From the NCBI GenBank assembly GCA_965116805.1, contig OZ220713.1:2041853-2105852 (forward strand): 64,000 bases of DNA, given 5' to 3'. The notes under the pieces were generated by a model. It worked only from the letters and a program-made list of their open reading frames with translations, was not told the origin of the DNA and did no database searches. Positions 13,817-28,592 of the stretch are shown piece by piece (within the stretch, counting starts at the first letter, position 1; each line of letters starts with the position of its first letter). Source of the stretch: Vicinamibacteria bacterium. Lineage in GTDB: Bacteria > Acidobacteriota > Vicinamibacteria > Marinacidobacterales > Marinacidobacteraceae. The translations under genes were made by a program, and so were the position numbers.

Positions 13817-14629
13817 ATGTGGGTAACCCGGCCGCTCGCGCGGGGCTTCGACCCGGCCCGGATCAGGGACCCGGAACGTTCGGGAGCGGTGGACTGGGCG
13901 CTCTTCAACGCCAACTTCGAGCGGTTCCTGAACACCCCCTGGTGGCGCGTCAACCAGGGACATCGCGGCCCCGCGTGGCTCCGCGCTCTCCGTCTCGGCA
14001 TCGCGTACGCGCAGCAGCGGCGCGACGCGATCCACGACTTCACAGGCAAGGCGGCGGCGCTTTCCCGCCTGCGCGTCCCGCCCGACCCCAGCATCGTGTT
14101 CTTCGGCGCCGAGGCGGGCTGGGAGGCGGCGATCCTCCAGGCGCTCTTCGGAGCCGGCGGCGAAGTCGTCCTGATCGACGAGGACCCCGCGGCCCACGAC
14201 CGCTTCCGCCACGCGCCGCTCGCCGTTCGCGTCCGGGCGCCCCGCGGTTCGGCCCGCCACGAACTCCTCGTGAAGCGCGACCCCGACCGCTGGCGCTACC
14301 TCCGCCAGAACTTCTTCGACGTGCCCCCCGAGCCCCGTTTCGACGTCGGCATCGACTGGGGCCTCATCGAGCACTTCCCCGACCCCGGCAAGGCCAGGCT
14401 CATCGCCCACTTCCGGCGGTTCCTGAAACCCGGAGCCCTCCAGATCTCCAGCACCCCCCGGGACCGCTTCGCCGTCCGCCTCTTCTACCGCGCCTTCGCC
14501 GACGAACTCAACACCGGCTACCGCGAACTCATGACACTCCCCGAGCTAACGGACCGCATCGAGTCGGCAGGCGGCACAATCGAAACCCAACTCACCCTCC
14601 CCGCCCACAACATCGTCGCCTACCGATAA
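13817..14629 (+). CDS. Class I SAM-dependent methyltransferase-like protein
   Basis: Rossmann motif I ...SIVFFGAEAGWEAA..., acidic strand VVLIDEDP, post-II ...IEHFPDPGKARLIAHFRRFLKPGALQIS.... Confidence 0.6.
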   Translation: MWVTRPLARGFDPARIRDPERSGAVDWALFNANFERFLNTPWWRVNQGHRGPAWLRALRLGIAYAQQRRDAIHDFTGKAAALSRLRVPPDPSIVFFGAEAGWEAAILQALFGAGGEVVLIDEDPAAHDRFRHAPLAVRVRAPRGSARHELLVKRDPDRWRYLRQNFFDVPPEPRFDVGIDWGLIEHFPDPGKARLIAHFRRFLKPGALQISSTPRDRFAVRLFYRAFADELNTGYRELMTLPELTDRIESAGGTIETQLTLPAHNIVAYR

Positions 14630-15040
14630 CGCTCGGAGCGCCGGCCTCCGGCCGGCATCGACCGCCCCCAGGCGGTCGAAACCGCACCCCGCCTCCCGCC
14701 CTCTCCGCAGCAACGGCTGGGACCGCCGGTCTTCAGACCGGCAGCGGCCCGCAGGGCCGCAAAGCGCGCGGCCCCGATCCGCGTGGATGACGCGTACGGC
14801 TTGGAACGCCGGCTTCAGCCGGCACGCGGCCCGCAGGGCCGCAGAGCGCGCGGCGCTGATCCGCGCTGATGGCGCGTACGGCTTGGAACGCCGGCTTCAG
14901 CCGGCACGCGGCCCACAGGGCCGCAGAGCGCGCGGCGTTGATCGCGGGGAGAACACGCACGGCTGGGAGCGCCGGTCTTCAGACCGGCACGCGCGGCGCC
15001 CCCCCACCGGGAGAACTGGCGCGCCGCGCGCTTCGTACGC
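14630..15040. repeat. Cluster of REP/BIME-like palindromic units, including two about 80-bp tandem copies
   Basis: GTACGGCTTGGAACGCCGGCTTCAGCCGGCACGCGGCC(C/A)CAGGGCCGCAGAGCGCGCGGCG occurs twice in tandem at 14797-14960. Also GCCGGTCTTCAGACCGGCAC and CGCGGCGCCCCCCCACCGGGAGAACTGGCGCGCCGCG hairpins. The same units are found at 5.35-6.0 kb, 28.6 kb, 33.4-33.8 kb and 37.2 kb. Confidence 0.8.
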
Positions 15041-15044
15041 GGAA

Positions 15045-16147
15045 GCTCCGGTCAATAGCGACGAGGCTCCGGTCGATATCGAGGGCCTCGGGCTCCCAGC
15101 TCCAGTCGATAACTTCGGAGGTCCGGTCGATATCGGGCGTCTCGGATTCCCAGCTCCGGTCGATAACGCCGGGGGTCCGGTCGATATCGGATGTCTCGGA
15201 TTCCGAGCTCCGGTCGATATCGAGGATCGGTGGCGGAGTTGGCAATAGGATGAGGGCGCGATGATGCGCCACCTGACCGCAATCGTCGAACGGGAGGCCG
15301 ACGGATACGTCGCCCTGTGCCCGGAAGTAGATGTCGCGAGCCAGGGAGACACCGTTGCCGAGGCACGCGCGAACCTGAAGGAAGCGCTGACCCTATTCTT
15401 CGAGACGGCCCCCGCAGAGGAAATCGACCGGCGACGTGTCTCGGGATTCCAGCTCCGGTCGATAACTGTGGGGGTCCGGTCGATATCGGGGGTCTCGGAT
15501 TCCCAGCTCCGGTCGATAACGTCGGGGGTCCGGTCGATATGCGGTGTCTCGGATCTCAACTCCGGTCGATATCGAGGGTTGGCGGCGACAGGTCCGGTCG
15601 ATATCGATGGAGCTCCGGTCGATAACGCCAGCCGGCCAGTCGAGCTCCGGTCGATAACGCGCAGCTCCGGTCGATATCCGGGGTCGGCGGGCTGGAAGCT
15701 CCGGTCGATAACGTGGAGCTCCGGTCGATATCCGGGGTCGGCGGGCTGGAAGCTCCGGTCGATAACGTGGAGCTCCGGTCGATATCCGGGGTCGGCGGGC
15801 TGGAAGCTCCGGTCGATAACGTGGAGCTCCGGTCGATATCGGAGGCCGGCGGGCTGGAGGCTCCGGTCGATAACGTGGAGCTCCGGTCGATATCCGGGGT
15901 CGGCGGTTGGAAGCTCCGGTCGATAAACGTGGAGCTCCGGTCGATATCGGAGGCCGGCGGGTGGAGGCTCCGGTCGATAACGTGGAGCTCCGGTCGATAT
16001 CGGAGGCTGGCGGGTGGAGGCTCCGGTCGATAACGCGGTGTAGGAGACGCCCGTAGAGTCGGAGTTGGGAGACACCAACTTTTGCGCACGGGGGAGGCGA
16101 GGCTCCGGTCGATAGCGATGGTCAGCGAAGGGAGCTCCGGTCGATAA
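15045..16147. repeat. Tandem array of about 31 copies of a 16-bp motif GCTCCGGTCGATA(A/T)CG alternating the ATAACG and ATATCG variants, in two clusters (15045-15221 and 15452-16147). Includes a 54-bp higher-order repeat of about 6 copies at 15699-16030.
   Basis: Directly visible: ...gctccggtcgataacgtggagctccggtcgatatccggggtcggcgggctggaa... repeated with period 54. Copies are spaced 20-33 bp apart. The core contains the palindrome CGATATCG. One isolated copy sits at 17079-17095. Confidence 0.9.
15261..15926 (+). CDS. HicB-like (UPF0150) antitoxin-domain protein. The N-terminal roughly 58 aa form a genuine domain. The rest of the ORF is read-through of the tandem array.
   Basis: MMRHLTAIVEREADGYVALCPEVDVASQGDTVAEARANLKEALTLFFETAPAEEIDRR matches the HicB/UPF0150 N-terminal fold. 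From residue about 60 the frame is translated repeat (QLRSITVGVRSISGVSD...). No HicA partner adjacent. The true C-terminus is unknown. Confidence 0.4.
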   Translation: MMRHLTAIVEREADGYVALCPEVDVASQGDTVAEARANLKEALTLFFETAPAEEIDRRRVSGFQLRSITVGVRSISGVSDSQLRSITSGVRSICGVSDLNSGRYRGLAATGPVDIDGAPVDNASRPVELRSITRSSGRYPGSAGWKLRSITWSSGRYPGSAGWKLRSITWSSGRYPGSAGWKLRSITWSSGRYRRPAGWRLRSITWSSGRYPGSAVGSSGR

Positions 16148-16148
16148 C

Positions 16149-16931
16149 ATGAGACTCGTGACTCTTCGTCGAGCGGCGCTTGGCGCCGTGCTGGCGCTCA
16201 TGGCGGTCGTGGTGACGCTCGCCGTGATCCGGCGGTCGGCCACTCCGCCAGCGCCCACGACTTCGGCAGACGAGGCGCTTGCCCTGGAGTCACCGTCCTA
16301 CGGCACGCGTGAACCAGCGGTGGACGCTGCCGAGCCGGAAACCGAGGTCCCCGATGAAGTCCTGGCCGTTCAAACGCCACCGGACAGCAGTCCGGCGGGA
16401 CTCCTGGTGGCAGCCGCCGGGGCGGGCGACGCCGCGCGCGTTCGGGAACTCCTCGCTGCCGGAGTGCCGCCGGATTCCGAGAGTCAGGGAACGTTCGCCA
16501 TTCACCGCGCCGCGGTCGCTGGTTCGGTCGCGGTACTCCAGGTTCTCGTGGAGGCCGGAGCGCACCTCGAAGCGCTCAACCAGTACGGGCAGACGGCCCT
16601 GACCCAGGCTGCGTTCTACGGCAATGCGGAAGCGGTGGTGTTCCTGCTGAGCGCGGGCGCCGACCCGAACGCCCACGCCGAACCGAACCATCAGACACCC
16701 CTGAGGGCGATCCTGAGCGGCTGGACAATGACTCTCTCGAGTCGCTCGCGGCTCCCGCCGAAGGACGAGGAACGCTTCGCGGCGGCCTGGGCGCTCATTC
16801 AGGCGGGGGCCGATCCACACTTCGGTCCCGGAGACCATCCACCGCCAGTGGTGATGGCGGAAGCCCTCGGCGGCGAAGTCGGGCGGCTCTTCGCCCAGGA
16901 TCCGACCGATCCCGGGCAGCGCCCGCGCTGA
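16149..16931 (+). CDS. Ankyrin-repeat protein with N-terminal signal/TM anchor
   Basis: MRLVTLRRAALGAVLALMAVVVTLAV...; repeated ANK units (..TPLHRAA..G....VLVEAGA..). The ATG sits immediately after the last array copy (...gctccggtcgataacATG). Confidence 0.8.
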   Translation: MRLVTLRRAALGAVLALMAVVVTLAVIRRSATPPAPTTSADEALALESPSYGTREPAVDAAEPETEVPDEVLAVQTPPDSSPAGLLVAAAGAGDAARVRELLAAGVPPDSESQGTFAIHRAAVAGSVAVLQVLVEAGAHLEALNQYGQTALTQAAFYGNAEAVVFLLSAGADPNAHAEPNHQTPLRAILSGWTMTLSSRSRLPPKDEERFAAAWALIQAGADPHFGPGDHPPPVVMAEALGGEVGRLFAQDPTDPGQRPR

Positions 16932-17163
16932 ACGGGCAGGTGCCCCAGGGCCCGGGTTCGGCGCTGTCCGGTCCCCCGCTCCGGACTAGAGCGAGCCGAG
17001 CGTGGCCCAGGGGTCTCCGCGCAGCGTCCTGAGCCCGGCGATCGCCGAAGCGAGGAGCATCAGTCGACAGCGACGGAGGCTCCCGTCGATATCGGATTCG
17101 AAGTCCTGTTCGGCCGCGCCGTAGGACCGACGTCAAACCGAAGCGGCGATGGGCGCGGTTGAT

Positions 17164-17436
17164 CTATTTCGGCACGTGGTGCCGCCGATATGCCTGACTC
17201 CGGTGGAGGACGGCTTCGATGGCCACGGAGCCAGTCTGCGGATCATGTCGGTAGATCACGCGCCAATCCCCGACCCGGAGCCGCGCCATGTTGCCCGGCC
17301 CCTTCAGTCTCTTCACATCGCCCTGATCTTGCTCGACATAACGGTCGATCGCCTCAACTACCCGAATGCGAGCCGGCCGATCAAGCCGCTTCAGGTCGCG
17401 AAGCGCGCGATTCGTATAGGACGCGCGTTCGGTCAG
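17164..17436 (-). CDS. RelE/ParE-family type II toxin lacking a canonical start codon (possible pseudogene, or CTG start overlapping the antitoxin stop)
   Basis: Reverse frame gives LTERASYTNRALRDLKRLDRPARIRVVEAIDRYVEQDQGDVKRLKGPGNMARLRVGDWRVIYRHDPQTGSVAIEAVLHRSQAYRRHHVPK*, a classic RelE/ParE core. The in-frame upstream stretch back to a TGA contains no ATG/GTG/TTG. Confidence 0.5.
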   Translation of the reverse strand: MTERASYTNRALRDLKRLDRPARIRVVEAIDRYVEQDQGDVKRLKGPGNMARLRVGDWRVIYRHDPQTGSVAIEAVLHRSQAYRRHHVPK

Positions 17437-17687
17437 ATGCCTAGTTCTCGCTTCACCTCGGCCGAGGTGTGAGTCCGTCCGGCCATGCGATCCGCGCGGG
17501 CCTCTTCAATCGCTCGCAGCGCCTCACCGCTCAACTCGTCCTCATCGAGTGGCAGCGTCGCCACCGGCCTGCGTCCGAGACGGGGTTGCCTAGCCAAGGA
17601 TTCAAGCACCCTCGTGGCGAGGGGGGTCTGCGTATCCGGGAGTCGATCCACCAAGTCGTGGAGCCTGGCCCTGGCTGCCCCTTTCAT
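17433..17687 (-). CDS. Type II antitoxin (RelB/ParD-like or addiction-module component) paired with the RelE/ParE toxin
   Basis: 84 aa, ...LPLDEDELSGEALRAIEEARADRMAGRTHTSAEVKRELGI*, acidic C-terminal region typical of antitoxins. Its stop overlaps the toxin's first codons. Confidence 0.6.
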   Translation of the reverse strand: MKGAARARLHDLVDRLPDTQTPLATRVLESLARQPRLGRRPVATLPLDEDELSGEALRAIEEARADRMAGRTHTSAEVKRELGI

Positions 17688-17800
17688 GAGCCGAATCTAG
17701 CACATGGATCACGGCTGAACCCGATGGTCCGGCACGGAAGAGAGGGCCCGGTGCTTCCACGATGGGCCGCCTGGGTTGAGACCGGTCTGCCTGACGGCGA

Positions 17801-18619
17801 TCACGTCCCCCCACGCGAAGCCCAGGGCTCCGGCGCCCACAGTCTCCAGCGAGTGATGAGCCGGGGGCACTCCAGCGCCGCATCCAGCTGTGTATTCCCA
17901 GCGGTGAGGCGCTGGCGGCAGGATTCCAACAGTTCCGGGCCTGACGGATCGCGTTCGGCGAGAAAGCCCAGCCGCTTGAAGACCGCACCGTTGCCGAGCC
18001 GGACGGCGTAGCGGATCAGGAGGTCGTCGTCGCGGCGGTCCGACTTGAGGTAGACCGACAGACAGTCGGCCACGTGCTGGATTCCGCCTCCGAGTTCCGG
18101 ATCGGCGAGCATGTCCAGGATGGTCCGGTGCATGTCCGCCACCGCGACCCGGGTTCTGCCACGCCAGACGCTGGCGGTCCCGAAGATCTTTCCCGGGCGG
18201 ACGTGGGTGACGCTGAACTCGGCGCCGTGGCAACGCCGGCTCTTCTGCCGCACGGTCTGCGCCGTCATGACCACGATGTCACGGAAGATCTGTTCGGTCA
18301 GATCCCAGTGCTCGGCGGCCGTGCGGCCACCGATGTAGGCCGGATCAAAGAGCGGCGGCACCAGGATCCACGGATCGTCCAGCACACGGATGCTGCCGAG
18401 CGTGGTGAGTGAGGCAGGGAGGTAGACGCCGCGGGCTGCGCGCCGCAGCCATGCCTGTTTCACCCAGCGCGAGAGCAACTTCGCAGCCTCGGCGCGCGAC
18501 ACCTCGAGGGCGTTCACGACATCCTCTATCCGCACGACGTCCCCGGCTTCGTTGAGGACGGCGCTGAGGCGACGGCGCGATTCCGGAACGACGGGATCCG
18601 ATGTGGTGGTGGTTCTCAT
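17801..18619 (-). CDS. AbiEi-like (COG5340) antitoxin/transcriptional-regulator domain protein
   Basis: N-terminal wHTH ...DVVRIEDVVNALEVSRAEAAKLLSRWVKQAWLRRAARGVYLP.. followed by AbiEi_4-like ...FDPAYIGGRTAAEHWDLTEQIF....VTHVRPGKIFG.... No cognate AbiEii nucleotidyltransferase downstream. Confidence 0.6.
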   Translation of the reverse strand: MRTTTTSDPVVPESRRRLSAVLNEAGDVVRIEDVVNALEVSRAEAAKLLSRWVKQAWLRRAARGVYLPASLTTLGSIRVLDDPWILVPPLFDPAYIGGRTAAEHWDLTEQIFRDIVVMTAQTVRQKSRRCHGAEFSVTHVRPGKIFGTASVWRGRTRVAVADMHRTILDMLADPELGGGIQHVADCLSVYLKSDRRDDDLLIRYAVRLGNGAVFKRLGFLAERDPSGPELLESCRQRLTAGNTQLDAALECPRLITRWRLWAPEPWASRGGT

Positions 18620-19172
18620 GGTCGGCGAATCACGGAGGCTACGTCCTGGCGTGGCGGTGGCGTCTGCGTCTACTCGTGACTTCAGTTGTCCGGAACTACA
18701 TTACATTGTCATTTGATCGCACTAGTCGGGAAATTCAGACATCTCCATATATCCCAAGTCAATCCTGTCCAACTCGACACACCGTTGATCTCTCCCGCAA
18801 TCCGACCGGTCACCGCGACCCGGTCATTCCCGGATCAAACGCAAAACCTGTGGTTGGTCAGCGGTTTGTGGGGTTGTGTGCTCTCTCTAATATCGCTTTC
18901 CAGTCAAATAGATAAACCACGTTTTAACAATGACTTAGCGTGCTTTGTGCTCCAGGCGAGCGTTTCCGGTCAAGTAAACGCGGGTCGTCGGCTCGGAGTT
19001 CGGACGGGAGCAGCCGGCACCCGGCGGCCGCACCGCCGCCGGATCTGGAGCGCGAGCTCGCTCAGGCCGAGACTCAGTGCGATTCGGACTGATTCACTTC
19101 AGGACTGGAGGGCGGCAAGAGTCGCCACCAGGACGAATCCGGCAGGAACCCCCTGAAACAATACGCCGCCGC

Positions 19173-21992
19173 ATGCGCCTCTCCTGGAACGAGATCCGCG
19201 CCCGCGCCGGGTCCTTCGCCCGCAAGTGGGCGGACGCCGGATACGAGAAAGGCGAGACCCAGAGCTTCTACAACGACTTCTTCCGCATCTTCGGGGTGCG
19301 CCGGGAGTCGGTGGCCCGCTACGAGGAGCGGGTGGAGAAGCTCGACGACACCAGCGGGTTCATCGACCTCTTCTGGCCGGGAGTCCTGATCGTCGAACAG
19401 AAGAGCGCCGGGCGCAACCTGTCCGCTGCATACGAGCAGGCGGGAGGCTACTTCGACGCGCTGACGGAGACCGAGCGGCCTCGCTACATCCTGGTCAGCG
19501 ACTTCCAGCACTTCGAACTCCACGACCTGCTCCAGCGGGACGAGGTGTCCTTCCGGCTCGACCAGTTGCCGGAACACGTCGAGAAGTTCGGCTTCATCCT
19601 GGGTGTCGCCAGCCGCACCTTCCGGGACCAGGACCCGGCGAACATCGAGGCCGCCGAACTGGTCGGGAAGCTCCACGATTCGCTCCGGGACGCCGGCTAT
19701 CCGGCCCACGACCTCGAACGCTTCCTCGTCCGGATCGTCTTCTGCCTGTTCGCCGACGACACCGGAGTCTTCGAGCCCCGGGACATCCTGCTCGACTTCC
19801 TGGAGACGCGGACCCGCGAGGACGGTACGGACCTCGGACCACTGCTCGCCCAACTCTTCCAGGTGCTGGACACCCCCGAAGACCAGCGAATCGCAACTCT
19901 GGACGAGGATCTGGCCCGCTTTCCGTACATCGACGGCGAACTCTTCGCCGCCACCATCCGGATTCCAGCGTTCACCGCGGAGATGCGGGAGCACCTGCTG
20001 ACCGCCTGCCGGTTCAACTGGTCAACGATCTCCCCGGCGATCTTCGGGTCGCTTTTCCAGTCGGTGATGGACCCGGTGGAGCGTCGGGCGCAGGGGGCGC
20101 ACTACACCACCGAGCAGAACATCCTCAAGGTCATCGAGCCGCTCTTCCTCGACGATCTGTGGGAGGAGTTCACCCGGATCAGAGCCCTCCGCCGCGATCG
20201 GCTTCGGCGGCTGCGCGAGTTCCAGGAGAAGCTCGGCAGGCTCACTTTCTTCGATCCGGCGTGCGGCTGCGGCAACTTCCTGGTGATCGCGTATCGCGAG
20301 CTTCGGCGGCTGGAAGTCGAAGTACTCCGCGAGCTCCTGGGGAGGGAGGAACAGCAGGTCCTCCAGTTTGACGTGAGTTCGCTCTCCCGGCTCGACGTAG
20401 ACCAGTTCTACGGGATCGAGATCGGGGAGTTCCCGGCCCGGATCGCCGAGGTGGCTCTCTGGATGATGGACCACCTGATGAACAACGAGCTCAGCCTTGA
20501 GTTCGGTCAGTCCTACGCCCGCATCCCCCTGAAGCGCTCGCCGCACATCCACTGCGGGGATGCGCTGGAGATGGACTGGGAGGATCTGCTGCCGGCGAAG
20601 GAGTGTTCGTTCGTCTTCGGGAATCCCCCGTTCGGAGGCGCCAAGTTCCAGTCACCGGCGCAGCGGGCGCAGGTCCGGCGGATCGCCGCGCTCGGGGGCT
20701 CCGGCGGCACACTCGACTACGTGACCGCGTGGTTCATCACAGCGGGTGGATATATCCAGAAGAGCGGCCCGCCGGGCGAGCGGGCAAGGATCGGCTTCGT
20801 GGCGACGAACTCGATCACCCAGGGGGAGCAGGTGGCGCAGCTCTGGCCGATCCTGTTCGGCCGGTGCGGGCTTGAGATTGCCTTTGCCCACCGGACGTTC
20901 GCGTGGGGTTCGGACGCGCGGGGCATGGCGCATGTACACGTCGTCATCGTCGGGTTTGACGACCGGGCGGGGATTCCGGCGACGCGGCGGCTGTTTTCGT
21001 ACGACGACGTGAAGGGGAATCCGCATGAGAGTGGCCACGCGGTCTTGTCACCGTATCTGTTCGATGGCGGGGGACTGGCCGATCCGCATCTCGTGGTGCG
21101 GGAGGAGAGCCGGCCGATCAACGGGATGTCACAGTTGGTGACGGGCACCCAGCCGCTGGAAGACGGTCATCTCACTTTCTCGACCGAAGAGAGAGCGGTC
21201 TTTCTGTCTCGAGAGCCGGCCGCCGCGTCAATTCTCCGTCCGTTCCCGGGAGCACGTGAGTTCATTCGGCGTCAGACTCGGTGGATCCTTCACACCGGCA
21301 ACCTTGAGCCACAGGAACTCCGTGCTTTACCGCTCGTGCGCGAGCGACTGAGATTGGTGCGCGAGTTCCGCTCGAAGAGCAAGCGCACTACGACGCGGAA
21401 ACTGGCGGACTACCCGAGCATGTACGGTGTCACCGTGGTTCCGAACTCACCGTTCCTCGTGGTGCCTCAGGTGAGTTCAGAGCGGCGCGAATACGTGCCA
21501 ATCGGTTGGTTGGAACCTCCGACAATCCCGAGCGAAAAGCTGCGACTCCTTCTCGATGCGTCTCTTGCCGACTTCGCTCTCCTGACATCAGCAATGCATA
21601 TGGCATGGATGCGCGCGGTCACGGGCCGATTGGAGAGCCGTTACATGTATTCTGTGGGAGTGGTCTACAACACCTTCCCGCTACCTCCGAAGGACGCGGA
21701 TCTGGGTCCCCTCGACCCGCTCGCCCAAGCTGTCCTCGATGCCCGCGCCGCTCATCCCAACGCCACTCTCGCGGATCTCTACGACCCGGACCTCATGCCG
21801 GTGGACCTCCGCCGTGCCCACGAGGCACTCGACCGCGCCGTGGACCGTCTCTACCGGCCCCGCAAGTTTGCCTCCGAGCGGGAACGCGTCGAGCACCTCT
21901 TCACGCTCTACGAGCGGATGCGCACGCCGCTGGCCGCCACCACCACGAAGAAGCGCAAACGCCGTCGGACTAGCCGCCTATCCGCCATTTGA
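19173..21992 (+). CDS. MmeI-family type IIL (IIG) restriction-modification enzyme: single-chain endonuclease + N6-adenine methyltransferase + TRD (939 aa)
   Basis: MRLSWNEIRARAG... aligns by eye along its length with MmeI as I remember it (not database-checked). PD-ExK nuclease IDLFWPGVLIVEQKS; MTase motif I FFDPACGCGNFLVIAYRELRRLEVEVLRELL; motif IV FVFGNPPFGG; downstream ...ATNSITQGEQVAQLWP... and ...SERREYVPIGW.... The first Met of the track ORF (19077) is rejected in favour of Met33 (19173). Confidence 0.85.
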   Translation: MRLSWNEIRARAGSFARKWADAGYEKGETQSFYNDFFRIFGVRRESVARYEERVEKLDDTSGFIDLFWPGVLIVEQKSAGRNLSAAYEQAGGYFDALTETERPRYILVSDFQHFELHDLLQRDEVSFRLDQLPEHVEKFGFILGVASRTFRDQDPANIEAAELVGKLHDSLRDAGYPAHDLERFLVRIVFCLFADDTGVFEPRDILLDFLETRTREDGTDLGPLLAQLFQVLDTPEDQRIATLDEDLARFPYIDGELFAATIRIPAFTAEMREHLLTACRFNWSTISPAIFGSLFQSVMDPVERRAQGAHYTTEQNILKVIEPLFLDDLWEEFTRIRALRRDRLRRLREFQEKLGRLTFFDPACGCGNFLVIAYRELRRLEVEVLRELLGREEQQVLQFDVSSLSRLDVDQFYGIEIGEFPARIAEVALWMMDHLMNNELSLEFGQSYARIPLKRSPHIHCGDALEMDWEDLLPAKECSFVFGNPPFGGAKFQSPAQRAQVRRIAALGGSGGTLDYVTAWFITAGGYIQKSGPPGERARIGFVATNSITQGEQVAQLWPILFGRCGLEIAFAHRTFAWGSDARGMAHVHVVIVGFDDRAGIPATRRLFSYDDVKGNPHESGHAVLSPYLFDGGGLADPHLVVREESRPINGMSQLVTGTQPLEDGHLTFSTEERAVFLSREPAAASILRPFPGAREFIRRQTRWILHTGNLEPQELRALPLVRERLRLVREFRSKSKRTTTRKLADYPSMYGVTVVPNSPFLVVPQVSSERREYVPIGWLEPPTIPSEKLRLLLDASLADFALLTSAMHMAWMRAVTGRLESRYMYSVGVVYNTFPLPPKDADLGPLDPLAQAVLDARAAHPNATLADLYDPDLMPVDLRRAHEALDRAVDRLYRPRKFASERERVEHLFTLYERMRTPLAATTTKKRKRRRTSRLSAI

Positions 21993-22170
21993 GAACCTAG
22001 GTGGGTCGCAGCGGGCTCGCCCACCCGGACTTCCGTGTGGGTTGTCTCTGAGTGAAGGAGCGGCCGGCCTGTCTGGGGCTAAGGTTTTCCGGGACGAGCC
22101 CACAAGCCGGCATACTCAACGCCCCGGCGACACCTTGTGAATACGCCAGGAATGAGCGGGGAGACCTAGC

Positions 22171-23262
22171 GTGACGGACATCATTGAGCCGGCACAGAGT
22201 GAACTGATGGTGTACCGCCCCCTCTCGCAAATGGTGCAGCTGTTCGTGCTGCCAGAGATTGATAGACGCGTCGATTCCGGCGCGATCCCAGAAGTCGATC
22301 TGCCGCTGCAGCTGCTTCAGTTCAGGGTCGTCGAGCCCGGACCCAGGCATACCGTTGAACTCAATGACGAGGTTCAGCTCACGTTTCGTGTCAAGGCGAA
22401 GAAGGCCGTCAAAGCCGGGGAGCCCGTCCACCTCGACGAGATTGACGCTGCCTCCACCGTGCTACTGCCGCCCATCGTGGATGGGACGCCTAGGTCGTTC
22501 TTTCTCCTCCTATCGGCGTTCCTAAACCTGCAGACGGCGTTTGACTTTACCCAGGGCGGACCTGGTCCCATCGGACCACCAATGCTGTTTCCGGCTGCCC
22601 AGTTGGTCCAGATGCAGCGATTTCTTGAGACGGTACAGCCAGTGGAGAAGTTCAGGGAGTTGGCACGGCTCAACTGGCCACCGGCACCGGGGTACTTCCC
22701 TAGTGTCATCGCGCATGCGCATGAGAATCCCGACGATCTGAAGAGGCCGCAGTTCGCGGCCAAGGTTGCAGATACGTACGATGCGGACTTCTGGCAGCAA
22801 CAGCTGGATCTCTGGGGGCAGACCAAACTCTTTCCAGGCCGGTCGCAGTACATCCGTAAAGCCGTCGACGAGTATTGCGAAGACGACTGGATAAGCTCCA
22901 TTTGCGTCATCGTCCCTCAGTTTGAGGGCATCATCTCGGACTACCTACGGACTGTCGGTGAGGAGCCGAAATCCAGGTTCAAAGAAATGGTGTCTCAGCT
23001 CCGGACGCTTGTGTTTTCGCGGAAAGTATTGCTATTCCCGTCGCCTGTCCTTGAGTTGATTCTCGGATTCCTCGAAACGGGAACATTCTGGCAGAACGCG
23101 GATAGCATCGACGATCCGAAACAACAGATCAACCGGCATGGAATTGTCCACGGAGTATTCACCGGTTTTGAGACAAGGGACGTAGCTCTAAAGTACCTGG
23201 TACTCGTCGATGCGCTCGCGCTGCTGATTTTGCACGACAGGATTGTGACCGGCACTCTCTAG
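22171..23262 (+). CDS. Hypothetical protein (363 aa), low-GC, no recognisable family. C-terminal R-x4-H (RHGIVH) could be a HEPN-like motif.
   Basis: GTG start with RBS. Clean 1.09 kb ORF in a roughly 52% GC segment. Convergent with the 4-TM gene. Confidence 0.7.
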   Translation: MTDIIEPAQSELMVYRPLSQMVQLFVLPEIDRRVDSGAIPEVDLPLQLLQFRVVEPGPRHTVELNDEVQLTFRVKAKKAVKAGEPVHLDEIDAASTVLLPPIVDGTPRSFFLLLSAFLNLQTAFDFTQGGPGPIGPPMLFPAAQLVQMQRFLETVQPVEKFRELARLNWPPAPGYFPSVIAHAHENPDDLKRPQFAAKVADTYDADFWQQQLDLWGQTKLFPGRSQYIRKAVDEYCEDDWISSICVIVPQFEGIISDYLRTVGEEPKSRFKEMVSQLRTLVFSRKVLLFPSPVLELILGFLETGTFWQNADSIDDPKQQINRHGIVHGVFTGFETRDVALKYLVLVDALALLILHDRIVTGTL

Positions 23263-23327
23263 CCGCATGGCTCCAGAGACCGAAGTCGGTCGCAGTCCGC
23301 CATGTGCAAGAGCGTTGGTGCACGTCG

Positions 23328-24194
23328 TCAGTCGCGATCTTCCGTCCTCGATAGCGTGTCATTCCAAACGCGCTGCAACGGTTCCTCGTAATAGCGCTTA
23401 AGGCTGTCCGGGATAAGTGGTCCTTCCTTACGTGCCCACTGATAGCCTGAGACGGCAAGAATCACGTCAAGATTGGACACACTGCCGACTCGATCCAGGA
23501 GCTCTGTGAGCCTCTTCATTGATTCCTCCGCCGCCACGCTCAACCGATGGTACTTCGTCCCTAGATTCACAGCGTCCAGAAGGACAAGTAGAGAAATGGC
23601 CAAGCCATAACTGCGCCGGAGGATTCCTGAGGCACCCATAGTTGCTCGCTCGTCCTGTACTTCCAGTCCCCCTAGCGTTATAGCTGAGACGGAAACCACT
23701 AGCGCGGCCCCCGTCACGATGAAGACAATCAGCGATGCCTTCTTGGCTAGCTGCTCGGTCCACCAGGCGGACTCGCGTTCCATTCTGATGAGCAGAGAAT
23801 GTGAGGGCTCGCCCGACGCTTCATAGTAATCGTCGTAGCTCACAGAGGGACCTTGTCTCGGCAACCTGTTGACATACTTCAACTTCACTCTGGCCAACTT
23901 CGCCGCGTCAATCTTGTACCCGATGCCACGGCTTAGTTCGATAGCCCGAATGGTCCATTCCGCGTCTTCCCGATAGTTTTCTGACCTCCAAACACAGATC
24001 CGCCCGGAGATCGCAAACACGACCGCACCCAGCGGTCCGACCCACCCTTGCCATCCAATCGACCATGCGATCGGAACGGCCACAATAGCCAGATAGCCAA
24101 GACTGACGCCGAAACCCCACAACAGCTTTGCCCGAGAGGACACCCAGGTCCGGAGGTGGTGAAGTTGCTTCAAATCTGGCTCACCAATGCTCAT
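23328..24194 (-). CDS. Four-TM membrane protein (288 aa), candidate membrane-disrupting effector (SLATT/4TM-like)
   Basis: TM pairs LLWGFGVSLGYLAIVAVPIAW / WVGPLGAVVFAISGRICVW and ASLIVFIVTGAALVVSVSAITLGG / LAISLLVLLDAVNLG separated by soluble segments. Low GC. Downstream of the nucleotidyltransferase on the same strand. Confidence 0.7.
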   Translation of the reverse strand: MSIGEPDLKQLHHLRTWVSSRAKLLWGFGVSLGYLAIVAVPIAWSIGWQGWVGPLGAVVFAISGRICVWRSENYREDAEWTIRAIELSRGIGYKIDAAKLARVKLKYVNRLPRQGPSVSYDDYYEASGEPSHSLLIRMERESAWWTEQLAKKASLIVFIVTGAALVVSVSAITLGGLEVQDERATMGASGILRRSYGLAISLLVLLDAVNLGTKYHRLSVAAEESMKRLTELLDRVGSVSNLDVILAVSGYQWARKEGPLIPDSLKRYYEEPLQRVWNDTLSRTEDRD

Positions 24195-24423
24195 GTCAGT
24201 CTAAGTTCGAGGTGTAAAGAAAGGCTGTCGCGCAAATCGTGTCCACTTCAAGCGAGCATGCTCAGAGACCCGGCAATCCTACGACCCGCTATGTTCTCAG
24301 GAACTCCTCGATACGCAAGCGATGCTGGAGAGCAACGGGCCCACGATGCTTCTAGACGGCGTGGTTGCCGACCTCCAGCCGTTGCCCACAGGCTGCTCCA
24401 CTCGCCAGTCACGACACAGCAAT

Positions 24424-24453
24424 CGCGAGGAGTACCCGCGCGAGGAGTACCCG
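24424..24453. repeat. Perfect tandem duplication of a 15-bp unit CGCGAGGAGTACCCG x2 in the spacer between the nucleotidyltransferase and 4-TM genes
   Basis: ...aatCGCGAGGAGTACCCGCGCGAGGAGTACCCGgtgatg... read directly. Confidence 0.9.
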
Positions 24454-24495
24454 GTGATGACTAAATGGTCCGAGAGCCCTCGCCGCCCACCGCGC

Positions 24496-25368
24496 TTATT
24501 TGTAATAGCTCGGGAACTGCCCATCGAACAGTAAGTTCCACCAATAAAAGGCGTCCTTGATTTCCCCGCTGCTCTCCGCCGCCCTCGCCTTCGCGGCCCG
24601 TGAGGCTGCGGTTGCCAGCTTGCTCTTCGCCTCCTTCAGCTGTGCCTCCGTCCTGGATGGTGAGATGTACCCCGATACACCCATGGGATCTTGGATCTTG
24701 GCCAGTCCGATCCGTTGGAGCTCACGGAACACGCGCTCTACGTCAATCGCATACACGATCGACGACTCTCCGGACGCGTACTTGGCCACGCGGAGCTCCA
24801 GATAGAACGACAAGACCGGCACATCGCGGAAACACTTCCAGGCCTTGATGAATCTCACGAGCGGCTTCACCTTGTTCGACAGCGATTGGTCAATGCCCCG
24901 GACGTAACTGTTATGTGCGTCCGGACTCGACTTCATCCAACCCCCATCGCAATCCGGGATCTCGTACACGCGATGGTCACCACTCTTCCCGACGTAATCC
25001 GCCGGCGTCACCTCCGTCGTCTCCTTCTTGTCGGTGCCGAACGGCACAACCACTGCGGGACAGGCCGACCGCACACCCGTGTCGGGGAATCTTTCGGCCA
25101 GTGCGTCGCGTAGCTCCGTTAGCGAAGTCGTCGAGTTCCGCTTTAGCTTGTCCGTTGGGATACTCGCCATGTAGTCAACGTCGCTGTACCCAGAGATCGA
25201 CGTGCCGTTGCCGAACGATCCCGTACGCCAGAAGCGTTTGAGTCCAAATTTGGAGCGGATGCACTGTTCAATCGACTTGCGGTGCCTCGTGGCGGCGGCC
25301 GTTTCGCCACTCGACGGAGTGAGCTTGGTCAGAAAATCTCGGAATCCCTCATCAACTGTCCTAGGCAT
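24496..25368 (-). CDS. cGAS/DncV-like (CD-NTase / SMODS-type) nucleotidyltransferase, 290 aa
   Basis: Pol-beta NTase motif WRTGSFGNGTSISGYSDVDYM (GS...[DE]h[DE]h); third acidic strand VYEIPDCD; followed by the OAS/cGAS-type helix ...LVRFIKAWKCF.... Low GC. Confidence 0.65.
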   Translation of the reverse strand: MPRTVDEGFRDFLTKLTPSSGETAAATRHRKSIEQCIRSKFGLKRFWRTGSFGNGTSISGYSDVDYMASIPTDKLKRNSTTSLTELRDALAERFPDTGVRSACPAVVVPFGTDKKETTEVTPADYVGKSGDHRVYEIPDCDGGWMKSSPDAHNSYVRGIDQSLSNKVKPLVRFIKAWKCFRDVPVLSFYLELRVAKYASGESSIVYAIDVERVFRELQRIGLAKIQDPMGVSGYISPSRTEAQLKEAKSKLATAASRAAKARAAESSGEIKDAFYWWNLLFDGQFPSYYK

Positions 25369-25533
25369 TACATTCTCCCGTGAAGTTCAACGGTCTCGCG
25401 ACGCAAGGCCGGGCCGCAGCTAGTGTTCCCCTTCAGGCCTCGCATCCAAGAGTCGACCTCCAGGGAAGAACGCCTAAGTACGCCCTTTCGCCGTTCGAGG
25501 GCGTCGTAAGGGCTCTGCATCAAGTCGCAATCG

Positions 25534-25562
25534 GAGCGATAGCGGATTTCGCTATCGCTCCG
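25534..25562 (-). terminator. Perfect 12-bp stem hairpin (GGAGCGATAGCG-GATTT-CGCTATCGCTCC) 45 bp downstream of groEL; probable operon terminator (no U-tract)
   Basis: Inverted repeat read directly. It sits between the groEL 3' end and the nucleotidyltransferase start. Confidence 0.4.
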
Positions 25563-25606
25563 CGCCAAAACGAATGATCTGAGGCGTAGCCGGTGGTTAC
25601 CTTGGA

Positions 25607-27268
<1,662 letters not shown>

Positions 27269-27282
27269 TCAGTGGGGGCCGT

Positions 27283-27570
27283 CTACTCGACGATGCCCAG
27301 AATCTCGTCCTCGCGGACGATGATGAAGTCCTCGCCGTCGAGCTTGACCTCGGATCCGGAGTACTTTCCGATCAGCACGGTCTGCCCGGGCTTGACCTCG
27401 GGAGCCTGACGGCCGCCGTCCTTCAGGACCTTGCCGGCGCCCACCTCGACCACTTCGGCGGTCATCGGTTTTTCCTTCGCGGTATCGGGAACGATGATGG
27501 AGCCGATCTTCTCCTCGGCCGCCTCGAGCCGGCGAAGCAGAACGTTCTCCCTCAGAGGCTTGAACTTCAT
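27283..27570 (-). CDS. groS: Co-chaperonin GroES (95 aa)
   Basis: MKFKPLRENVLLRRLEAAEEKIGSIIVPDTAKEKPMTAEVVEVGAGKVLKDG...; 35 bp upstream of groEL. The track ORF is trimmed to this Met. Confidence 0.95.
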   Translation of the reverse strand: MKFKPLRENVLLRRLEAAEEKIGSIIVPDTAKEKPMTAEVVEVGAGKVLKDGGRQAPEVKPGQTVLIGKYSGSEVKLDGEDFIIVREDEILGIVE

Positions 27571-27723
27571 CGGAATGGGTCTCCTCTTTCTGGATGGACG
27601 CCACACGGCGTCCATGACTGGGTTGCGATGCGTCCGGTCGGCCGGGCTTCGGGGCCTCGGGCCGTCCTCGCCGGTCCGCGCGGCGGGCCGGCGGCGCCGG
27701 TCAAGGGCGCCGGACAGCGGGAA

Positions 27724-27751
27724 CGATACTTGCGAGTGCGGTCCCTGTCAA
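27724..27751 (-). promoter_or_regulatory. Sigma70-like promoter for groES-groEL: -35 TTGACA (complement of 27746-27751), 16-nt spacer, -10 TATCGT (complement of 27724-27729)
   Basis: Reverse strand reads cTTGACAgggaccgcactcgcaagTATCGTtcc about 150 nt upstream of groES. No canonical CIRCE (TTAGCACTC-N9-GAGTGCTAA) found. Confidence 0.4.
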
Positions 27752-27809
27752 GTACTTTTTAGCCGCGGCTTACTACATAAAGTTGAGTCAAATCGACTCC
27801 GATTCTGAC

Positions 27810-28592
27810 TCAGGCCGAATCCTGGCCCCGCACGACGACCTCGAAGCCCGCCACCCCGGCCGGTATCCGCAGCTCCCGCCCGCCGTTCGTGGATGCGGCC
27901 TCGACCGGAGTCCCCGCCGACTCCAGCGCCCGGCGGTCCGCGTCGAGGTCCGTGGTTTCGAGCACCAGGCTCCGGAGTCCGGGTTGATCCCGCTGGAAAC
28001 GGAGCACGCAGCCGTTCCCGAAGGGGACCCGGGCGCTCCCGCCGTCCATCTCGAAACCCACGTCGAAGAGTTCCTCGAACCGCCGCCCCGCCGCTTCGGG
28101 ATCGGCGGCGCCCGCGACCACTTCGGCGAGGTGCGTCACCGAGAGCAGCGGGCTGACGCGCGCCGGCGGCGGATCGGGCCAGTTCCAGCTCGAGGCGTGC
28201 GGCTGGATCAGTTCGACGGTGAACCCGCAGCCGTCGTCGGGATAGACGAACGCCTCGAACCCGTCCGCCGCGTGGAAGATGCGGTCCTCGAAGATCGGGG
28301 CCGATTCCCTGACCCGGGCGACCGCGCCCTCGATGTCGTCGGTCTCGATGGCGATGTGCTCGAGTCCCTCGCCGATGGTCCGCAGGTACTGGCAGACCCG
28401 CGCCTCCGGGTTCCAGTTGTGGACCACGTGGAGCCAGCACTCGTTGCCGAGGAGCTTGCGGGAGTCGAGCTGGAAGCCGCGTCCCTGGTCGGTGCGGAGC
28501 TCGGCGGGTTCGAGGCCGACCTGGCGGAGGCGCTCGGCGGCGGAGGCGTGGCTCTGGTGGGCGGTGCCGATGTGCTGGAGGCGGAGGATCAT
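27810..28592 (-). CDS. VOC-family protein (two glyoxalase/bleomycin-resistance/dioxygenase-like domains)
   Basis: MILRLQHIGTAHQSH...LEHIAIETDDIEGAVARVRE... and a second ...VTHLAEVVAGAADPEAAGRRFEELF... module. Confidence 0.75.
   Translation of the reverse strand: MILRLQHIGTAHQSHASAAERLRQVGLEPAELRTDQGRGFQLDSRKLLGNECWLHVVHNWNPEARVCQYLRTIGEGLEHIAIETDDIEGAVARVRESAPIFEDRIFHAADGFEAFVYPDDGCGFTVELIQPHASSWNWPDPPPARVSPLLSVTHLAEVVAGAADPEAAGRRFEELFDVGFEMDGGSARVPFGNGCVLRFQRDQPGLRSLVLETTDLDADRRALESAGTPVEAASTNGGRELRIPAGVAGFEVVVRGQDSA

What the first reader, a model, noticed from the sequence alone, without database searches (positions are those of the whole stretch)
17164..25606. About 8.5 kb accessory 'defense island' between an ankyrin gene and groESL, with stepwise drop in GC
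Consecutive genes are: a RelE/ParE toxin with its antitoxin; an AbiEi-like regulator without AbiEii; an AT-rich (about 45% GC) 550-bp spacer at 18620-19172; an MmeI-type RM enzyme (about 62% GC); then three about 50% GC genes (NTase, 4-TM protein, unknown). Composition and content are typical of horizontally acquired anti-phage and addiction modules. The left edge is marked by a solo copy of the 16-bp array motif (17079-17095) and the right edge by the groEL terminator hairpin. No integrase or tRNA is visible at either border.
Basis: partly seen in the sequence, partly recalled or inferred. Interest (0 to 1): 0.65.

Follow-up and report, generated by a model that had tools for sequence, protein, structure and literature searches.

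The report
Mosaic defence island beside groEL
An 8.7-kb stretch just after the chaperonin gene groEL of an uncultured soil acidobacterium is a strain-variable slot packed with anti-phage and toxin-antitoxin genes (a restriction enzyme, a CBASS signalling system, a probable new RNase and remnants of older systems); it is an ordinary kind of defence hotspot, but clearly documented.

Summary
The accessory segment is real. It runs from just after the ankyrin stop (16932 to about 16990) to 25603, three bases from the groEL stop.

- **Empty site:** a 3.44-Mb contig with an identical GroEL has only 123 bp between groEL and the ankyrin gene. Other co-occurring strains carry different cargo at the same place, so this is a hotspot.
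- **Composition:** GC is lower than the host (0.62 against 0.70) in two plateaus, about 0.65 and about 0.57.
- **History:** the island is a layered mosaic, not one mobile element. The AbiE-MmeI core also occurs at this locus in a sister species. The CBASS, HEPN and ParE modules are specific to this lineage.
- **Borders:** no integrase, tRNA or att repeats. The hairpin at the right edge belongs to the island and replaces the native groEL terminator.

Verdict: a new member of a known kind, of moderate interest.

The parts
16932..17163 (.). Left junction and island-specific intergenic DNA. Weak residual similarity to the empty-site intergenic region runs to about 16990. An orphan copy of the array motif lies at 17080-17095.
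   Evidence: Homology to L001/L007 ends at the ankyrin stop (16931) in blastn. The alignment shows about 60 bp of weak similarity beyond it. Motif search.
17164..17436 (-). ParE/RelE-family type II toxin (90 codons). There is no ATG, GTG or TTG start. The likely start is CTG at 17436-17434, overlapping the antitoxin stop (CTGA).
   Evidence: Pfam ParE_toxin 2.6e-10, 41.2 bits against a cutoff of 23. PHROG RelE-like toxin 2.2e-13. Sequence read.
17433..17687 (-). Putative antitoxin (84 aa), upstream of the toxin and overlapping it by 4 nt.
   Evidence: ORF. No hit in Pfam, PADLOC, NCBIfam or PHROGs. A 65% aa homologue lies in L013 next to a truncated toxin.
17801..18619 (-). Orphan AbiEi, the antitoxin and regulator of the type IV AbiE system. 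Its partner AbiEii is deleted from codon 3; the breakpoint is near 17796.
   Evidence: PADLOC AbiEi PDLC02271 2e-121, full length. Pfam AbiEi_4 1.6e-05. L013 and L004 keep AbiEii remnants right after AbiEi (Pfam AbiEii 1.9e-13).
18620..19172 (.). Divergent intergenic region between AbiEi and the MmeI-type gene (GC 0.577). Presumed promoters.
   Evidence: GC. Conserved at 91% in L004, and an 84% remnant survives in L008. No Rfam match.
19173..21992 (+). Intact MmeI-family type IIG restriction-modification enzyme (939 aa from M33 of the longest ORF, which starts at 19077).
   Evidence: All five MmeI Pfam domains, 84-272 bits. PADLOC REase_MTase_IIG E=0 over 2-909 of 912 positions. Motifs D65-x10-EQK, FDPACGCGNF and NPPF at 484. 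The gene call in L002 gives 939 aa.
22171..23262 (+). 363-aa protein of an uncharacterised family. It has an N-terminal helix, a beta domain and a helical domain, followed by a C-terminal HEPN-like domain with an invariant R322-x4-H327 motif. Probable RNase.
23328..24194 (-). CBASS effector with four transmembrane segments (S-4TM type), 288 aa.
   Evidence: PADLOC Effector 4TM 5.9e-06 over 55-281. Two homologues carry Pfam PF18159. Four hydrophobic segments. Always found next to SMODS cyclases in homologous loci.
24195..24495 (-). Conserved non-coding spacer inside the CBASS cassette, with a conserved block of about 50 nt near 24362-24410.
   Evidence: The alignment with L097/L099 is contiguous through the gap, and indels break any reading frame. 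No excess folding energy.
24496..25368 (-). CBASS CD-NTase (SMODS oligonucleotide cyclase), 290 aa. Active-site motif GS...DVD at residues 50-65.
   Evidence: Pfam SMODS 2.2e-12. PADLOC Cyclase PDLC00776 3.7e-118, full length. NCBIfam CBASS_cyclase_b 2.3e-33, which is below its cutoff. Motif.
25369..25603 (.). Right junction, holding the island-borne 13-bp hairpin (25532-25562) that stands where the native groEL terminator should be. Homology with all relatives resumes at 25604, 3 nt from the groEL stop.

Best explanation
Window 16932-25603 is the current occupant of a strain-variable defence hotspot. The hotspot lies between the convergent 3' ends of groEL and an ankyrin-repeat gene in an uncultured member of the Acidobacteriota.

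**Structure.** It is a layered mosaic of at least five independent modules, not one mobile element.

- **Older layer (GC about 0.65-0.67).** An AbiE toxin-antitoxin system sits divergently next to an MmeI-type IIG restriction-modification gene. Here AbiEii has been deleted, leaving an orphan AbiEi, while the MmeI-type enzyme is intact.
- **Younger layer (GC about 0.56-0.58).** It lies between MmeI and groEL and brought a standalone 363-aa HEPN-like gene and a two-gene type I CBASS. In doing so it overwrote the native groEL terminator.
- **ParE-antitoxin pair.** This pair replaced AbiEii on the other side.

**How cargo turns over (inferred).** Exchange most likely happens by homologous recombination through the conserved flanks, plus local deletions and IS activity. 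Site-specific integration is unlikely.

**How it works (inferred from family knowledge).**
- The MmeI-type enzyme methylates host sites and cuts unmodified incoming DNA.
- If infection proceeds, the CD-NTase makes a cyclic oligonucleotide that activates the 4TM effector. The effector damages the membrane, giving abortive infection.
- The HEPN-like protein is probably a dormant RNase with a similar suicide role.
- ParE and its antitoxin stabilise the segment or add a further abortive route.
- The orphan AbiEi is a leftover regulator.
For: **Shown**
- An empty site with 123 bp between groEL and the ankyrin gene, in two contigs whose flanks are 96-97% identical.
- At least six different states at one junction: window type, empty, L004, L006, L008, and L010/L011.
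- L006 carries a full-length PDC-S68 plus Tiamat and helicase fragments.
- AbiEi-spacer-MmeI is shared with L004 (91%) and with the sister species L013 (85-91%). Those copies have a truncated MmeI and AbiEii remnants.
- The CBASS, HEPN and ParE positions are unique to the window and L002.
- The native terminator is present in 8 loci and absent here.
- The GC plateaus match these layers.
- There are no att-like repeats, no tRNA and no integrase.
- The cyclase-spacer-4TM cassette is conserved as one unit elsewhere (76% nt). Homologues of the 363-aa gene stand alone next to transposases, integrases, HigB and nSTAND3.
- Family assignments.
- A type I CBASS with a 4TM effector has been shown to defend against phage (bioRxiv 10.1101/2023.05.21.541620).

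**Precedent.** Hotspots of this kind between core genes are described in PMC10250203 and PMC10121019.
Against: - No function was tested. The recombination mechanism is inferred only from the absence of integration signatures and from the shared breakpoints.
- The polarity of events is not settled. The empty sites may be secondary deletions of an ancestral AbiE-MmeI module.
- The GC-normalised tetranucleotide signature does not differ from the host.
- The ParE gene lacks a canonical start codon, and the antitoxin matches no family.
- Several alternative cargos (L004, L010, L011) contain no recognisable defence genes.
Confidence: 0.8

Rival explanations
1. The island is ancestral at this locus. 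The empty and alternative states in other strains arose by deletion or replacement, so the window was not the recipient of a recent acquisition.
For: The AbiEi-MmeI core or its remnants occur at the same locus in L004, in L008 (a 326-bp spacer remnant) and in the sister species L013. The GC and GC3 of this core (0.65-0.67 and 0.82-0.83) are close to host values.
Against: The CBASS, the 363-aa gene and the ParE arrangement are found only in the window and L002. They have GC 0.56-0.58, and their insertion removed the native groEL terminator that 8 other loci retain. Core identity (85-91%) is lower than flank identity (90-97%), which fits exchange of divergent alleles as well as it fits descent.
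Confidence: 0.35
2. A single discrete mobile element (an integrative island or transposon) of about 8.7 kb inserted once, site-specifically, at the groEL 3' end.
For: All variants break within a few bases to about 60 bp of the groEL stop. An IS21 element is present in variant L004.
Against: The window has no integrase, transposase or tRNA, and no direct or inverted repeats link the two borders. The modules have different distributions among relatives and different GC. Each module occurs alone elsewhere. The whole island has no match in plasmids or phages.
Confidence: 0.05
3. The segment is mainly a collection of selfish addiction modules (an RM enzyme, toxin-antitoxin pairs, and toxic CBASS and HEPN genes) that persist through post-segregational killing rather than by protecting against phage.
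For: It holds a ParE toxin-antitoxin pair, an AbiE remnant and an RM enzyme, all of which can act as addiction modules. Decay products are common at the locus: truncated MmeI, AbiEii stubs, and Tiamat and helicase fragments. That pattern suggests rapid turnover without lasting benefit.
Against: Addiction and defence are not exclusive. CBASS with 4TM effectors, and MmeI-type enzymes, protect against phage experimentally (and established knowledge of RM systems). The clustering with other defence candidates at the same hotspot is the pattern seen for defence islands (PMC10250203, PMC10121019).
Confidence: 0.15

Closest known systems
Core defence hotspots and defence islands between conserved genes (P. 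aeruginosa cDHS, PMC10250203; E. coli hotspots, PMC10121019)
   Same: A fixed slot between two core genes. Strains of one species hold different cargo, including empty sites. The cargo is a mix of RM, CBASS, toxin-antitoxin and unknown genes, has a lower GC, and often comes without an integrase.
   Different: The host is an uncultured acidobacterium known only from metagenome assemblies. The slot is the groEL 3' end. Part of the cargo (AbiE-MmeI) is shared with a sister species. In this lineage the insertion replaced the groEL terminator.
Type I CBASS with a CD-NTase and a 4TM effector (for example EcCdnD12-4TM, bioRxiv 10.1101/2023.05.21.541620)
   Same: A two-gene operon: a SMODS/CD-NTase with a GS...DxD active site followed by an effector with four membrane segments. 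There are no Cap2/Cap3 or HORMA/TRIP13 genes.
   Different: A conserved non-coding spacer of about 300 bp separates the two genes. The CD-NTase clade and the nucleotide product are unknown. In other genomes the same cassette sits immediately after a type III CBASS gene set that has no effector of its own.
MmeI-family type IIG restriction-modification enzymes
   Same: A single polypeptide with the five MmeI domains, a D-x10-ExK nuclease motif, and NPPF and FxPACGxG methyltransferase motifs.
   Different: Its recognition sequence and activity are unknown. It lies divergently next to an AbiE module in three lineages.
AbiE (AbiEi/AbiEii) type IV toxin-antitoxin abortive-infection system
   Same: AbiEi gives a full-length match. 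In relatives the AbiEi stop and the AbiEii start overlap (GTGA), as in intact operons.
   Different: The AbiEii toxin is absent here, deleted from codon 3. The system is not functional as AbiE.
HEPN-domain abortive-infection and toxin RNases (HEPN/MNT toxins, the AbiA C-terminal HEPN, Csm6, RnlA/LsoA, HepS)
   Different: No sequence-profile match to any HEPN family. The N-terminal two-thirds (a long helix, a beta domain and a helical domain) have no recognisable relative. There is no MNT or other partner gene.

Membership tests
Defence island / defence hotspot | Two or more recognised defence systems clustered together | tested here: met
   MmeI-type IIG RM (PADLOC E=0, full length) and a type I CBASS (cyclase 3.7e-118 plus 4TM effector) lie within 6.5 kb.
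Defence island / defence hotspot | Presence/absence and cargo polymorphism at the same locus in closely related genomes | tested here: met
   Empty sites in L001/L003 and L007. Different cargo in L004, L006, L008, L010 and L011. Flanks are about 97-98% identical.
Defence island / defence hotspot | Composition differs from the host | tested here: inconclusive
   GC is clearly lower (z down to -6.6), but the GC-normalised tetranucleotide usage is not distinct (z <= 1).
Integrase-mediated genomic island | An integrase or recombinase, a tRNA or other att site, and flanking direct repeats | tested here: not met
   No integrase domain in any island ORF. No tRNA nearby. No repeat pair links the borders.
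Type I CBASS | A CD-NTase/SMODS cyclase with an intact GS...[DE]x[DE] active site | tested here: met
   Pfam SMODS 47.9 bits against a cutoff of 26.5. PADLOC Cyclase full length. The motif GSFGNGTSISGYSDVD is at residue 50. NCBIfam CBASS_cyclase_b scores 116 bits, below its equivalog cutoff of 200.
Type I CBASS | An adjacent effector gene in the same operon | tested here: met
   The 288-aa protein lies downstream on the same strand. PADLOC 4TM effector 5.9e-06. Homologues carry PF18159. Four hydrophobic segments. Synteny with cyclases holds in L097-L100.
Type I CBASS | No Cap2/Cap3 or HORMA/TRIP13 ancillary genes | tested here: met
   No such ORF lies between groEL and the 363-aa gene. Homologous cassettes in L097 and L100 do have HORMA and TRIP13 neighbours.
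Type I CBASS | Cyclic-oligonucleotide synthesis and phage protection | not testable with these tools
   Needs biochemistry and phage challenge.
MmeI-family type IIG RM | The five-domain MmeI architecture with nuclease and gamma-class methyltransferase motifs | tested here: met
   MmeI_N, MmeI_hel, MmeI_Mtase, MmeI_TRD and MmeI_C all score above their cutoffs. D65-x10-EQK, FDPACGCGNF and NPPF are present.
AbiE type IV toxin-antitoxin system | AbiEi antitoxin/regulator | tested here: met
   PADLOC PDLC02271 2e-121 over 10-267. Pfam AbiEi_4 25.3 bits against a cutoff of 25.
AbiE type IV toxin-antitoxin system | The AbiEii nucleotidyltransferase toxin encoded immediately downstream | tested here: not met
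   Homology to AbiEii-bearing relatives stops about 5 bp after the AbiEi stop codon. L013 retains an AbiEii fragment (1.9e-13) and L004 a stub of about 35 codons.
ParDE/RelBE type II toxin-antitoxin system | A ParE/RelE-fold toxin preceded by a small, overlapping antitoxin gene | tested here: met
   ParE_toxin 41.2 bits against a cutoff of 23. The 84-aa ORF upstream overlaps the toxin by 4 nt.
ParDE/RelBE type II toxin-antitoxin system | A recognisable antitoxin family and a translatable toxin | tested here: inconclusive
   The antitoxin has no hit in four libraries. The toxin frame has no ATG, GTG or TTG upstream of residue 41, so a CTG start is inferred.
HEPN superfamily | The four-helix HEPN fold | tested here: met
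HEPN superfamily | A conserved Rx4-6H catalytic motif | tested here: met
   R322-HGIV-H327 is invariant in 58 close and 42 distant sequences, down to 17% identity.
HEPN superfamily | A sequence-profile match to a described HEPN family | tested here: not met
   No Pfam, NCBIfam, PADLOC or PHROG hit. Of the 58 members, one matched HEPN_RiboL-PSP at E=0.58. The PDB profile search gave nothing.
HEPN superfamily | RNase activity | not testable with these tools
   Needs biochemistry.

The most novel reading that the evidence does not exclude
The 363-aa protein (22171-23262) represents a large, unannotated family: 1,579 clusters at 50% identity, found across Acidobacteriota, Chloroflexota, Desulfobacterota and at least one phage. 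It could be a new single-gene abortive-infection system. In that reading, its N-terminal beta and helical domains sense infection and release a C-terminal HEPN RNase. Separately, the conserved spacer of about 300 bp inside the cyclase-4TM cassette could be a regulatory element that lets one 4TM effector serve two cyclases, one type I and one type III.
Probability: 0.3. Interest if true: 0.6.

Novelty: new member of a known kind. Interest (0 to 1): 0.42.

Why it matters
- **Population view.** Within a single metagenome of an uncultured soil acidobacterium, one slot next to an essential, highly conserved gene (groEL) cycles through many different immune cargos. This extends the "core defence hotspot" picture, known from Pseudomonas and E. 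coli, to a poorly studied phylum and to natural co-occurring strains.
- **A practical handle.** The groEL-ankyrin junction can be used to fish further candidate defence genes out of these populations.
- **A concrete candidate.** The 363-aa HEPN-like family is large, has no annotation, and sits in defence and mobile-element contexts.
- **What is routine.** The RM enzyme, the CBASS, ParE and the AbiEi remnant are ordinary members of known families.

Tried and rejected
- **att-like repeats.** A search over 16700-25800 found only short chance pairs, and none links the two borders.
- **Rfam.** Scanning 14000-28500 at E <= 1 gave no match.
- **Promoter and terminator scans.** No promoter-like sites were found. 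The number of terminator-like sites equalled the shuffle expectation, and the hairpin at 25532-25562 was not flagged.
- **K-mer signature.** The tetranucleotide signature beyond GC is not distinct.
- **Structured RNA in the CBASS spacer.** Rejected: z-scores +1.08 and +0.09, and only two distinct sequences were available. A small ORF in that spacer is also rejected, because indels between homologues break the frame.
- **Partners for the 363-aa gene.** I looked for a link to MmeI or to CBASS. None was found in seven other contexts.
- **Sequence-level link to HEPN families.** None was found in Pfam on 58 members, in a PDB profile search, in PHROGs, or in PADLOC on distant members. Foldseek against the PDB was uninformative. 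The afdb50 library was unavailable.
- **Whole island in plasmids or phages.** Only the MmeI gene matched, at 72.8%, on a Methylorubrum plasmid.
- **A general hotspot after groEL?** Island genes were sought within 10 kb of groEL in 79 more distant genomes. Only the sister species L013 has any. This test asks only about the same genes; whether those genomes hold other defence genes after groEL was not examined.

Full report
**1. Checking the observation**

The window averages 0.69 GC, or 0.703 outside the island. Between the ankyrin-repeat gene (16149-16931, +; Pfam Ank_2 2.8e-13) and groEL (25607-27247, -) I find these genes:

| Feature | Coordinates | Main evidence |
|---|---|---|
| ParE/RelE toxin | 17164-17436 (-) | Pfam ParE_toxin 2.6e-10; PHROG RelE-like 2.2e-13 |
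| 84-aa upstream ORF, overlapping the toxin by 4 nt | 17433-17687 (-) | no family hit |
| AbiEi | 17801-18619 (-) | PADLOC 2e-121 |
| Spacer, 553 bp | 18620-19172 | — |
| MmeI-type IIG RM enzyme | 19173-21992 (+) | five MmeI Pfam domains; PADLOC E=0 |
| 363-aa ORF | 22171-23262 (+) | no hit in Pfam, PADLOC, NCBIfam or PHROGs |
| 288-aa membrane protein | 23328-24194 (-) | see section 3 |
| SMODS nucleotidyltransferase | 24496-25368 (-) | see section 3 |

The gene list is therefore right. On the + strand, however, the last three genes run unknown, 4TM, NTase.

The GC figures are not right. The measured values are spacer 0.577, MmeI 0.647, and the three right-hand genes 0.567, 0.559 and 0.583.

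The deviation is still highly significant. Host 1.5-kb windows average 0.704 (sd 0.023, minimum 0.637). The island windows fall to 0.555, a z-score of -6.6. Once base composition is normalised out, tetranucleotide usage does not differ from the host (z <= 1). The "k-mer signature" here is therefore essentially a GC signal.

The other details hold:
- The solo array motif is real: 17080-17095, one mismatch, and 27 copies against 0.21 expected by chance.
- The hairpin is real: a 13-bp perfect stem at 25532-25562.
- There is no tRNA apart from tRNA-Asp at 410-487, and no integrase domain.
- No repeat pair links the two borders.

**2. The decisive comparison**

*Empty site.* Looking up the exact GroEL protein returned two contigs.
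- One (L002, 55.8 kb) is 99.2-99.7% identical to the window and carries the same island.
- The other (L001, a 3.44-Mb contig) has 96-97% identical flanks, and groEL and the ankyrin gene are only 123 bp apart.

Homology to L001 stops at the ankyrin stop (16931) and resumes at 25604, three bases from the groEL stop. About 60 bp of weak similarity continues past the ankyrin stop. The accessory DNA is therefore 16932-16990 to 25603, and the solo motif lies inside it.

*A hotspot.* Looking up the exact GroES protein gave nine more contigs, most from one metagenome. Their flanks are about 97-98% identical to the window. The slot after groEL holds:

| Locus | Content of the slot |
|---|---|
| L003, L007 | nothing (empty) |
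| L005 | the window-type island |
| L004 | unknown genes, an IS21, DUF2513, an 84-aa MmeI N-terminal fragment, AbiEi and an AbiEii stub |
| L006 | a helicase fragment, a 372-aa fragment of Tiamat TmtA (2.4e-42) and a full-length PDC-S68 candidate defence helicase (E=0) |
| L008 | 2.85 kb without genes, including a 326-bp remnant of the window's spacer |
| L010, L011 | other cargo |

This is a hotspot with rapid turnover.

*Host and sister species.* A scan of reference genomes places the organism in the Acidobacteriota. The nearest genome is "Acidobacteria bacterium bin61" (GroEL 94% identical, flanks about 90%). The next nearest are Vicinamibacterales, at about 75%.

That sister species (L013) also carries, after groEL:
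- a truncated and frameshifted MmeI gene (335 aa);
- a NYN-domain gene;
- a copy of the antitoxin with a stub of the toxin;
- AbiEi (87.5% aa identity);
- an AbiEii fragment with an in-frame stop (Pfam AbiEii 1.9e-13).

These are documented. None of the 79 more distant genomes has island genes near groEL.

**3. What each part is**

*AbiEi.* In L004 and L013 the AbiEi stop overlaps a GTG start (GTGA). An AbiEii reading frame follows (MIGRREIL...FKGGTCLKK...RFSEDLDF). In the window, homology ends about 5 bp after the AbiEi stop codon, near 17796. The explanation is that this is the remnant of a decayed AbiE module whose toxin gene was replaced by the ParE pair.

*ParE pair.* The toxin frame has no ATG, GTG or TTG before residue 41. 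The only plausible start is a CTG overlapping the antitoxin stop. L013 shows the same CTGA.

*MmeI-type enzyme.* It is full length, with D65-x10-EQK, FDPACGCGNF and NPPF motifs. It is probably active. Its copies in L004 and L013 are truncated.

*CBASS.*
- The 290-aa protein is a full-length match to a PADLOC CBASS cyclase (3.7e-118). It carries the motif GSFGNGTSISGYSDVD.
- The 288-aa protein matches the PADLOC "4TM" effector (5.9e-06, nearly full length). It has four hydrophobic segments, and two of its homologues carry Pfam PF18159.
- The block of cyclase, a spacer of about 300 bp, and effector aligns as one piece with a locus in another genome. Identity is 76% at the nucleotide level, 84% for the cyclase protein and 64% for the effector protein.
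- With no Cap2/Cap3 or HORMA/TRIP13 genes, this is a type I CBASS.
- A CdnD-4TM type I operon has been shown to restrict phages (bioRxiv 10.1101/2023.05.21.541620).
- In the other genomes the cassette follows a type III gene set directly: a TRIP13-like AAA protein, Cap8, a HORMA protein and a second cyclase.

*The 363-aa protein.*
- It has at least 130 close homologues, all "hypothetical".
- A profile search found 1,579 clusters at E <= 1e-3.
- In seven other loci its neighbours differ: transposases, an integrase, HigB, nSTAND3 and prophage-like genes. It is therefore a standalone module.
- The AlphaFold model is confident (pLDDT 91.7).
- R322-x4-H327 (NRHGIVHG) is invariant even among relatives with 17-24% identity. 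So are R224, E252 and W215.
- One distant member is fused to a SoFic-like Fic domain.
- One uncharacterised phage protein matches the fold (E 1.8e-4).

Against this, no sequence profile links the family to any HEPN family, and Foldseek against the PDB is not significant. I rate "HEPN-fold RNase" at about 0.65. A defence role is plausible but untested.

**4. History and mechanism**

The two GC plateaus coincide with two layers.
- The layer at about 0.65 (AbiEi, spacer, MmeI) is shared with L004, L008 (remnant) and the sister species L013. It is therefore old, or has been exchanged repeatedly.
- The layer at about 0.57 (363-aa gene plus CBASS) is found only in the window and L002.

Its arrival removed the native groEL terminator (GGGCGTCGGCGC-TCAC-GCGCCGGCGCCC-TTTTT), which eight other loci retain. 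The island's own 13-bp hairpin now stands in that position. The same cassettes also have lower GC than their hosts in other genomes.

The window has no integrase, att repeat or tRNA. The modules have independent distributions. The breakpoints cluster at the ends of two conserved genes. The ankyrin gene and the repeat array next to it are much more divergent (84-93%) than the rest of the flanks (96-97%).

The most economical model is cargo exchange by homologous recombination through the conserved flanks, together with local deletions and occasional IS activity (the IS21 in L004). This mechanism is an inference.

The functional reading is layered immunity. The RM enzyme acts as the first line. 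CBASS, and probably the HEPN protein, act as abortive-infection back-ups. ParE acts as a stabiliser. This reading follows from what is known about these families and was not tested here.

**5. Comparison with what is known, and verdict**

The locus behaves like the core defence hotspots described in Pseudomonas aeruginosa (PMC10250203) and E. coli (PMC10121019). Its recognisable systems are ordinary members of known families.

Three things are new:
- the host, an uncultured acidobacterium, and the location, the groEL 3' end;
- the strain-level diversity seen within a single metagenome;
- one uncharacterised HEPN-like family that is a good candidate defence gene.

Novelty: a new member of a known kind. 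Interest: moderate.

Noticed in passing
window 15044-16118: A tandem array with a 54-bp period holds 26 copies of the 16-bp motif CTCCGGTCGATAWCGN. All copies are on the + strand, and the core is the palindrome TCGATATCGA. The array ends 31 bp upstream of the ankyrin start codon. Its length and sequence differ between strains (L001, L007, L008). It looks like an array of binding sites for a dimeric protein. Its function is unknown.
   Followed up: partly
window 14713-14993, 28681-28855 and about 33525-33663: Tandem repeats of 79-82 bp. Blastn cross-matches these window positions to one place in L001, which suggests a dispersed REP-like repeat family. One copy set lies in the groES-upstream flank of the hotspot, and another lies beyond the ankyrin gene and its array.
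   Followed up: no
window 17431-17440: The ParE toxin has no canonical start codon. A CTG overlaps the antitoxin stop (ATCTGA). The homologous copy in the sister species (L013, about 15105-15112) has the same CTGA, so this is not a recent mutation. It may keep toxin translation low.
   Followed up: partly
window 24195-24495 (conserved block about 24362-24410, minus strand): The non-coding gap of about 300 bp between the CBASS cyclase and the 4TM effector is conserved together with the cassette in another genome (L097/L099). It contains a block of about 50 nt that is nearly identical. No ORF is conserved and there is no excess folding energy. It is possibly the effector's own promoter or operator.
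   Followed up: partly
L097/L098 1966-6867; L100 3186-6876: In other genomes the same cyclase-4TM cassette lies directly after a type III CBASS set (TRIP13-like AAA, Cap8, bacHORMA_2 and a 285-aa SMODS) that has no effector of its own. In L100 that set is joined directly to the 4TM gene. Two different cyclases may share one effector.
   Followed up: partly
window 16149-16931 compared with L001, L007 and L008: The ankyrin-repeat gene next to the hotspot is only 84-93% identical between strains whose other flanks are 96-97% identical. Its called length also varies (174-266 aa). This suggests either hitch-hiking of divergent alleles with island exchange or diversifying selection.
   Followed up: no
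L006 12351-20288: An alternative cargo at the same slot: a full-length PDC-S68 candidate defence helicase (1270 aa), together with fragments of Tiamat TmtA and of a PbeA/type IV restriction-like helicase. These suggest earlier occupants that have since decayed.
   Followed up: partly
protein P0273 (741 aa), a distant relative of window 22171-23262: This protein fuses a SoFic-like Fic domain (PADLOC 3.7e-37) to the 363-aa family domain. Another member (P0281) carries C-terminal TPR repeats. These fusions tie the family to conflict systems.
   Followed up: no
L004 19606-20288: In strain variant L004 the gene beyond AbiEi is a Peptidase_M16 gene that does not occur anywhere in the 64-kb window. 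That strain therefore has a larger rearrangement or deletion, which removes the ankyrin gene and the repeat array.
   Followed up: partly
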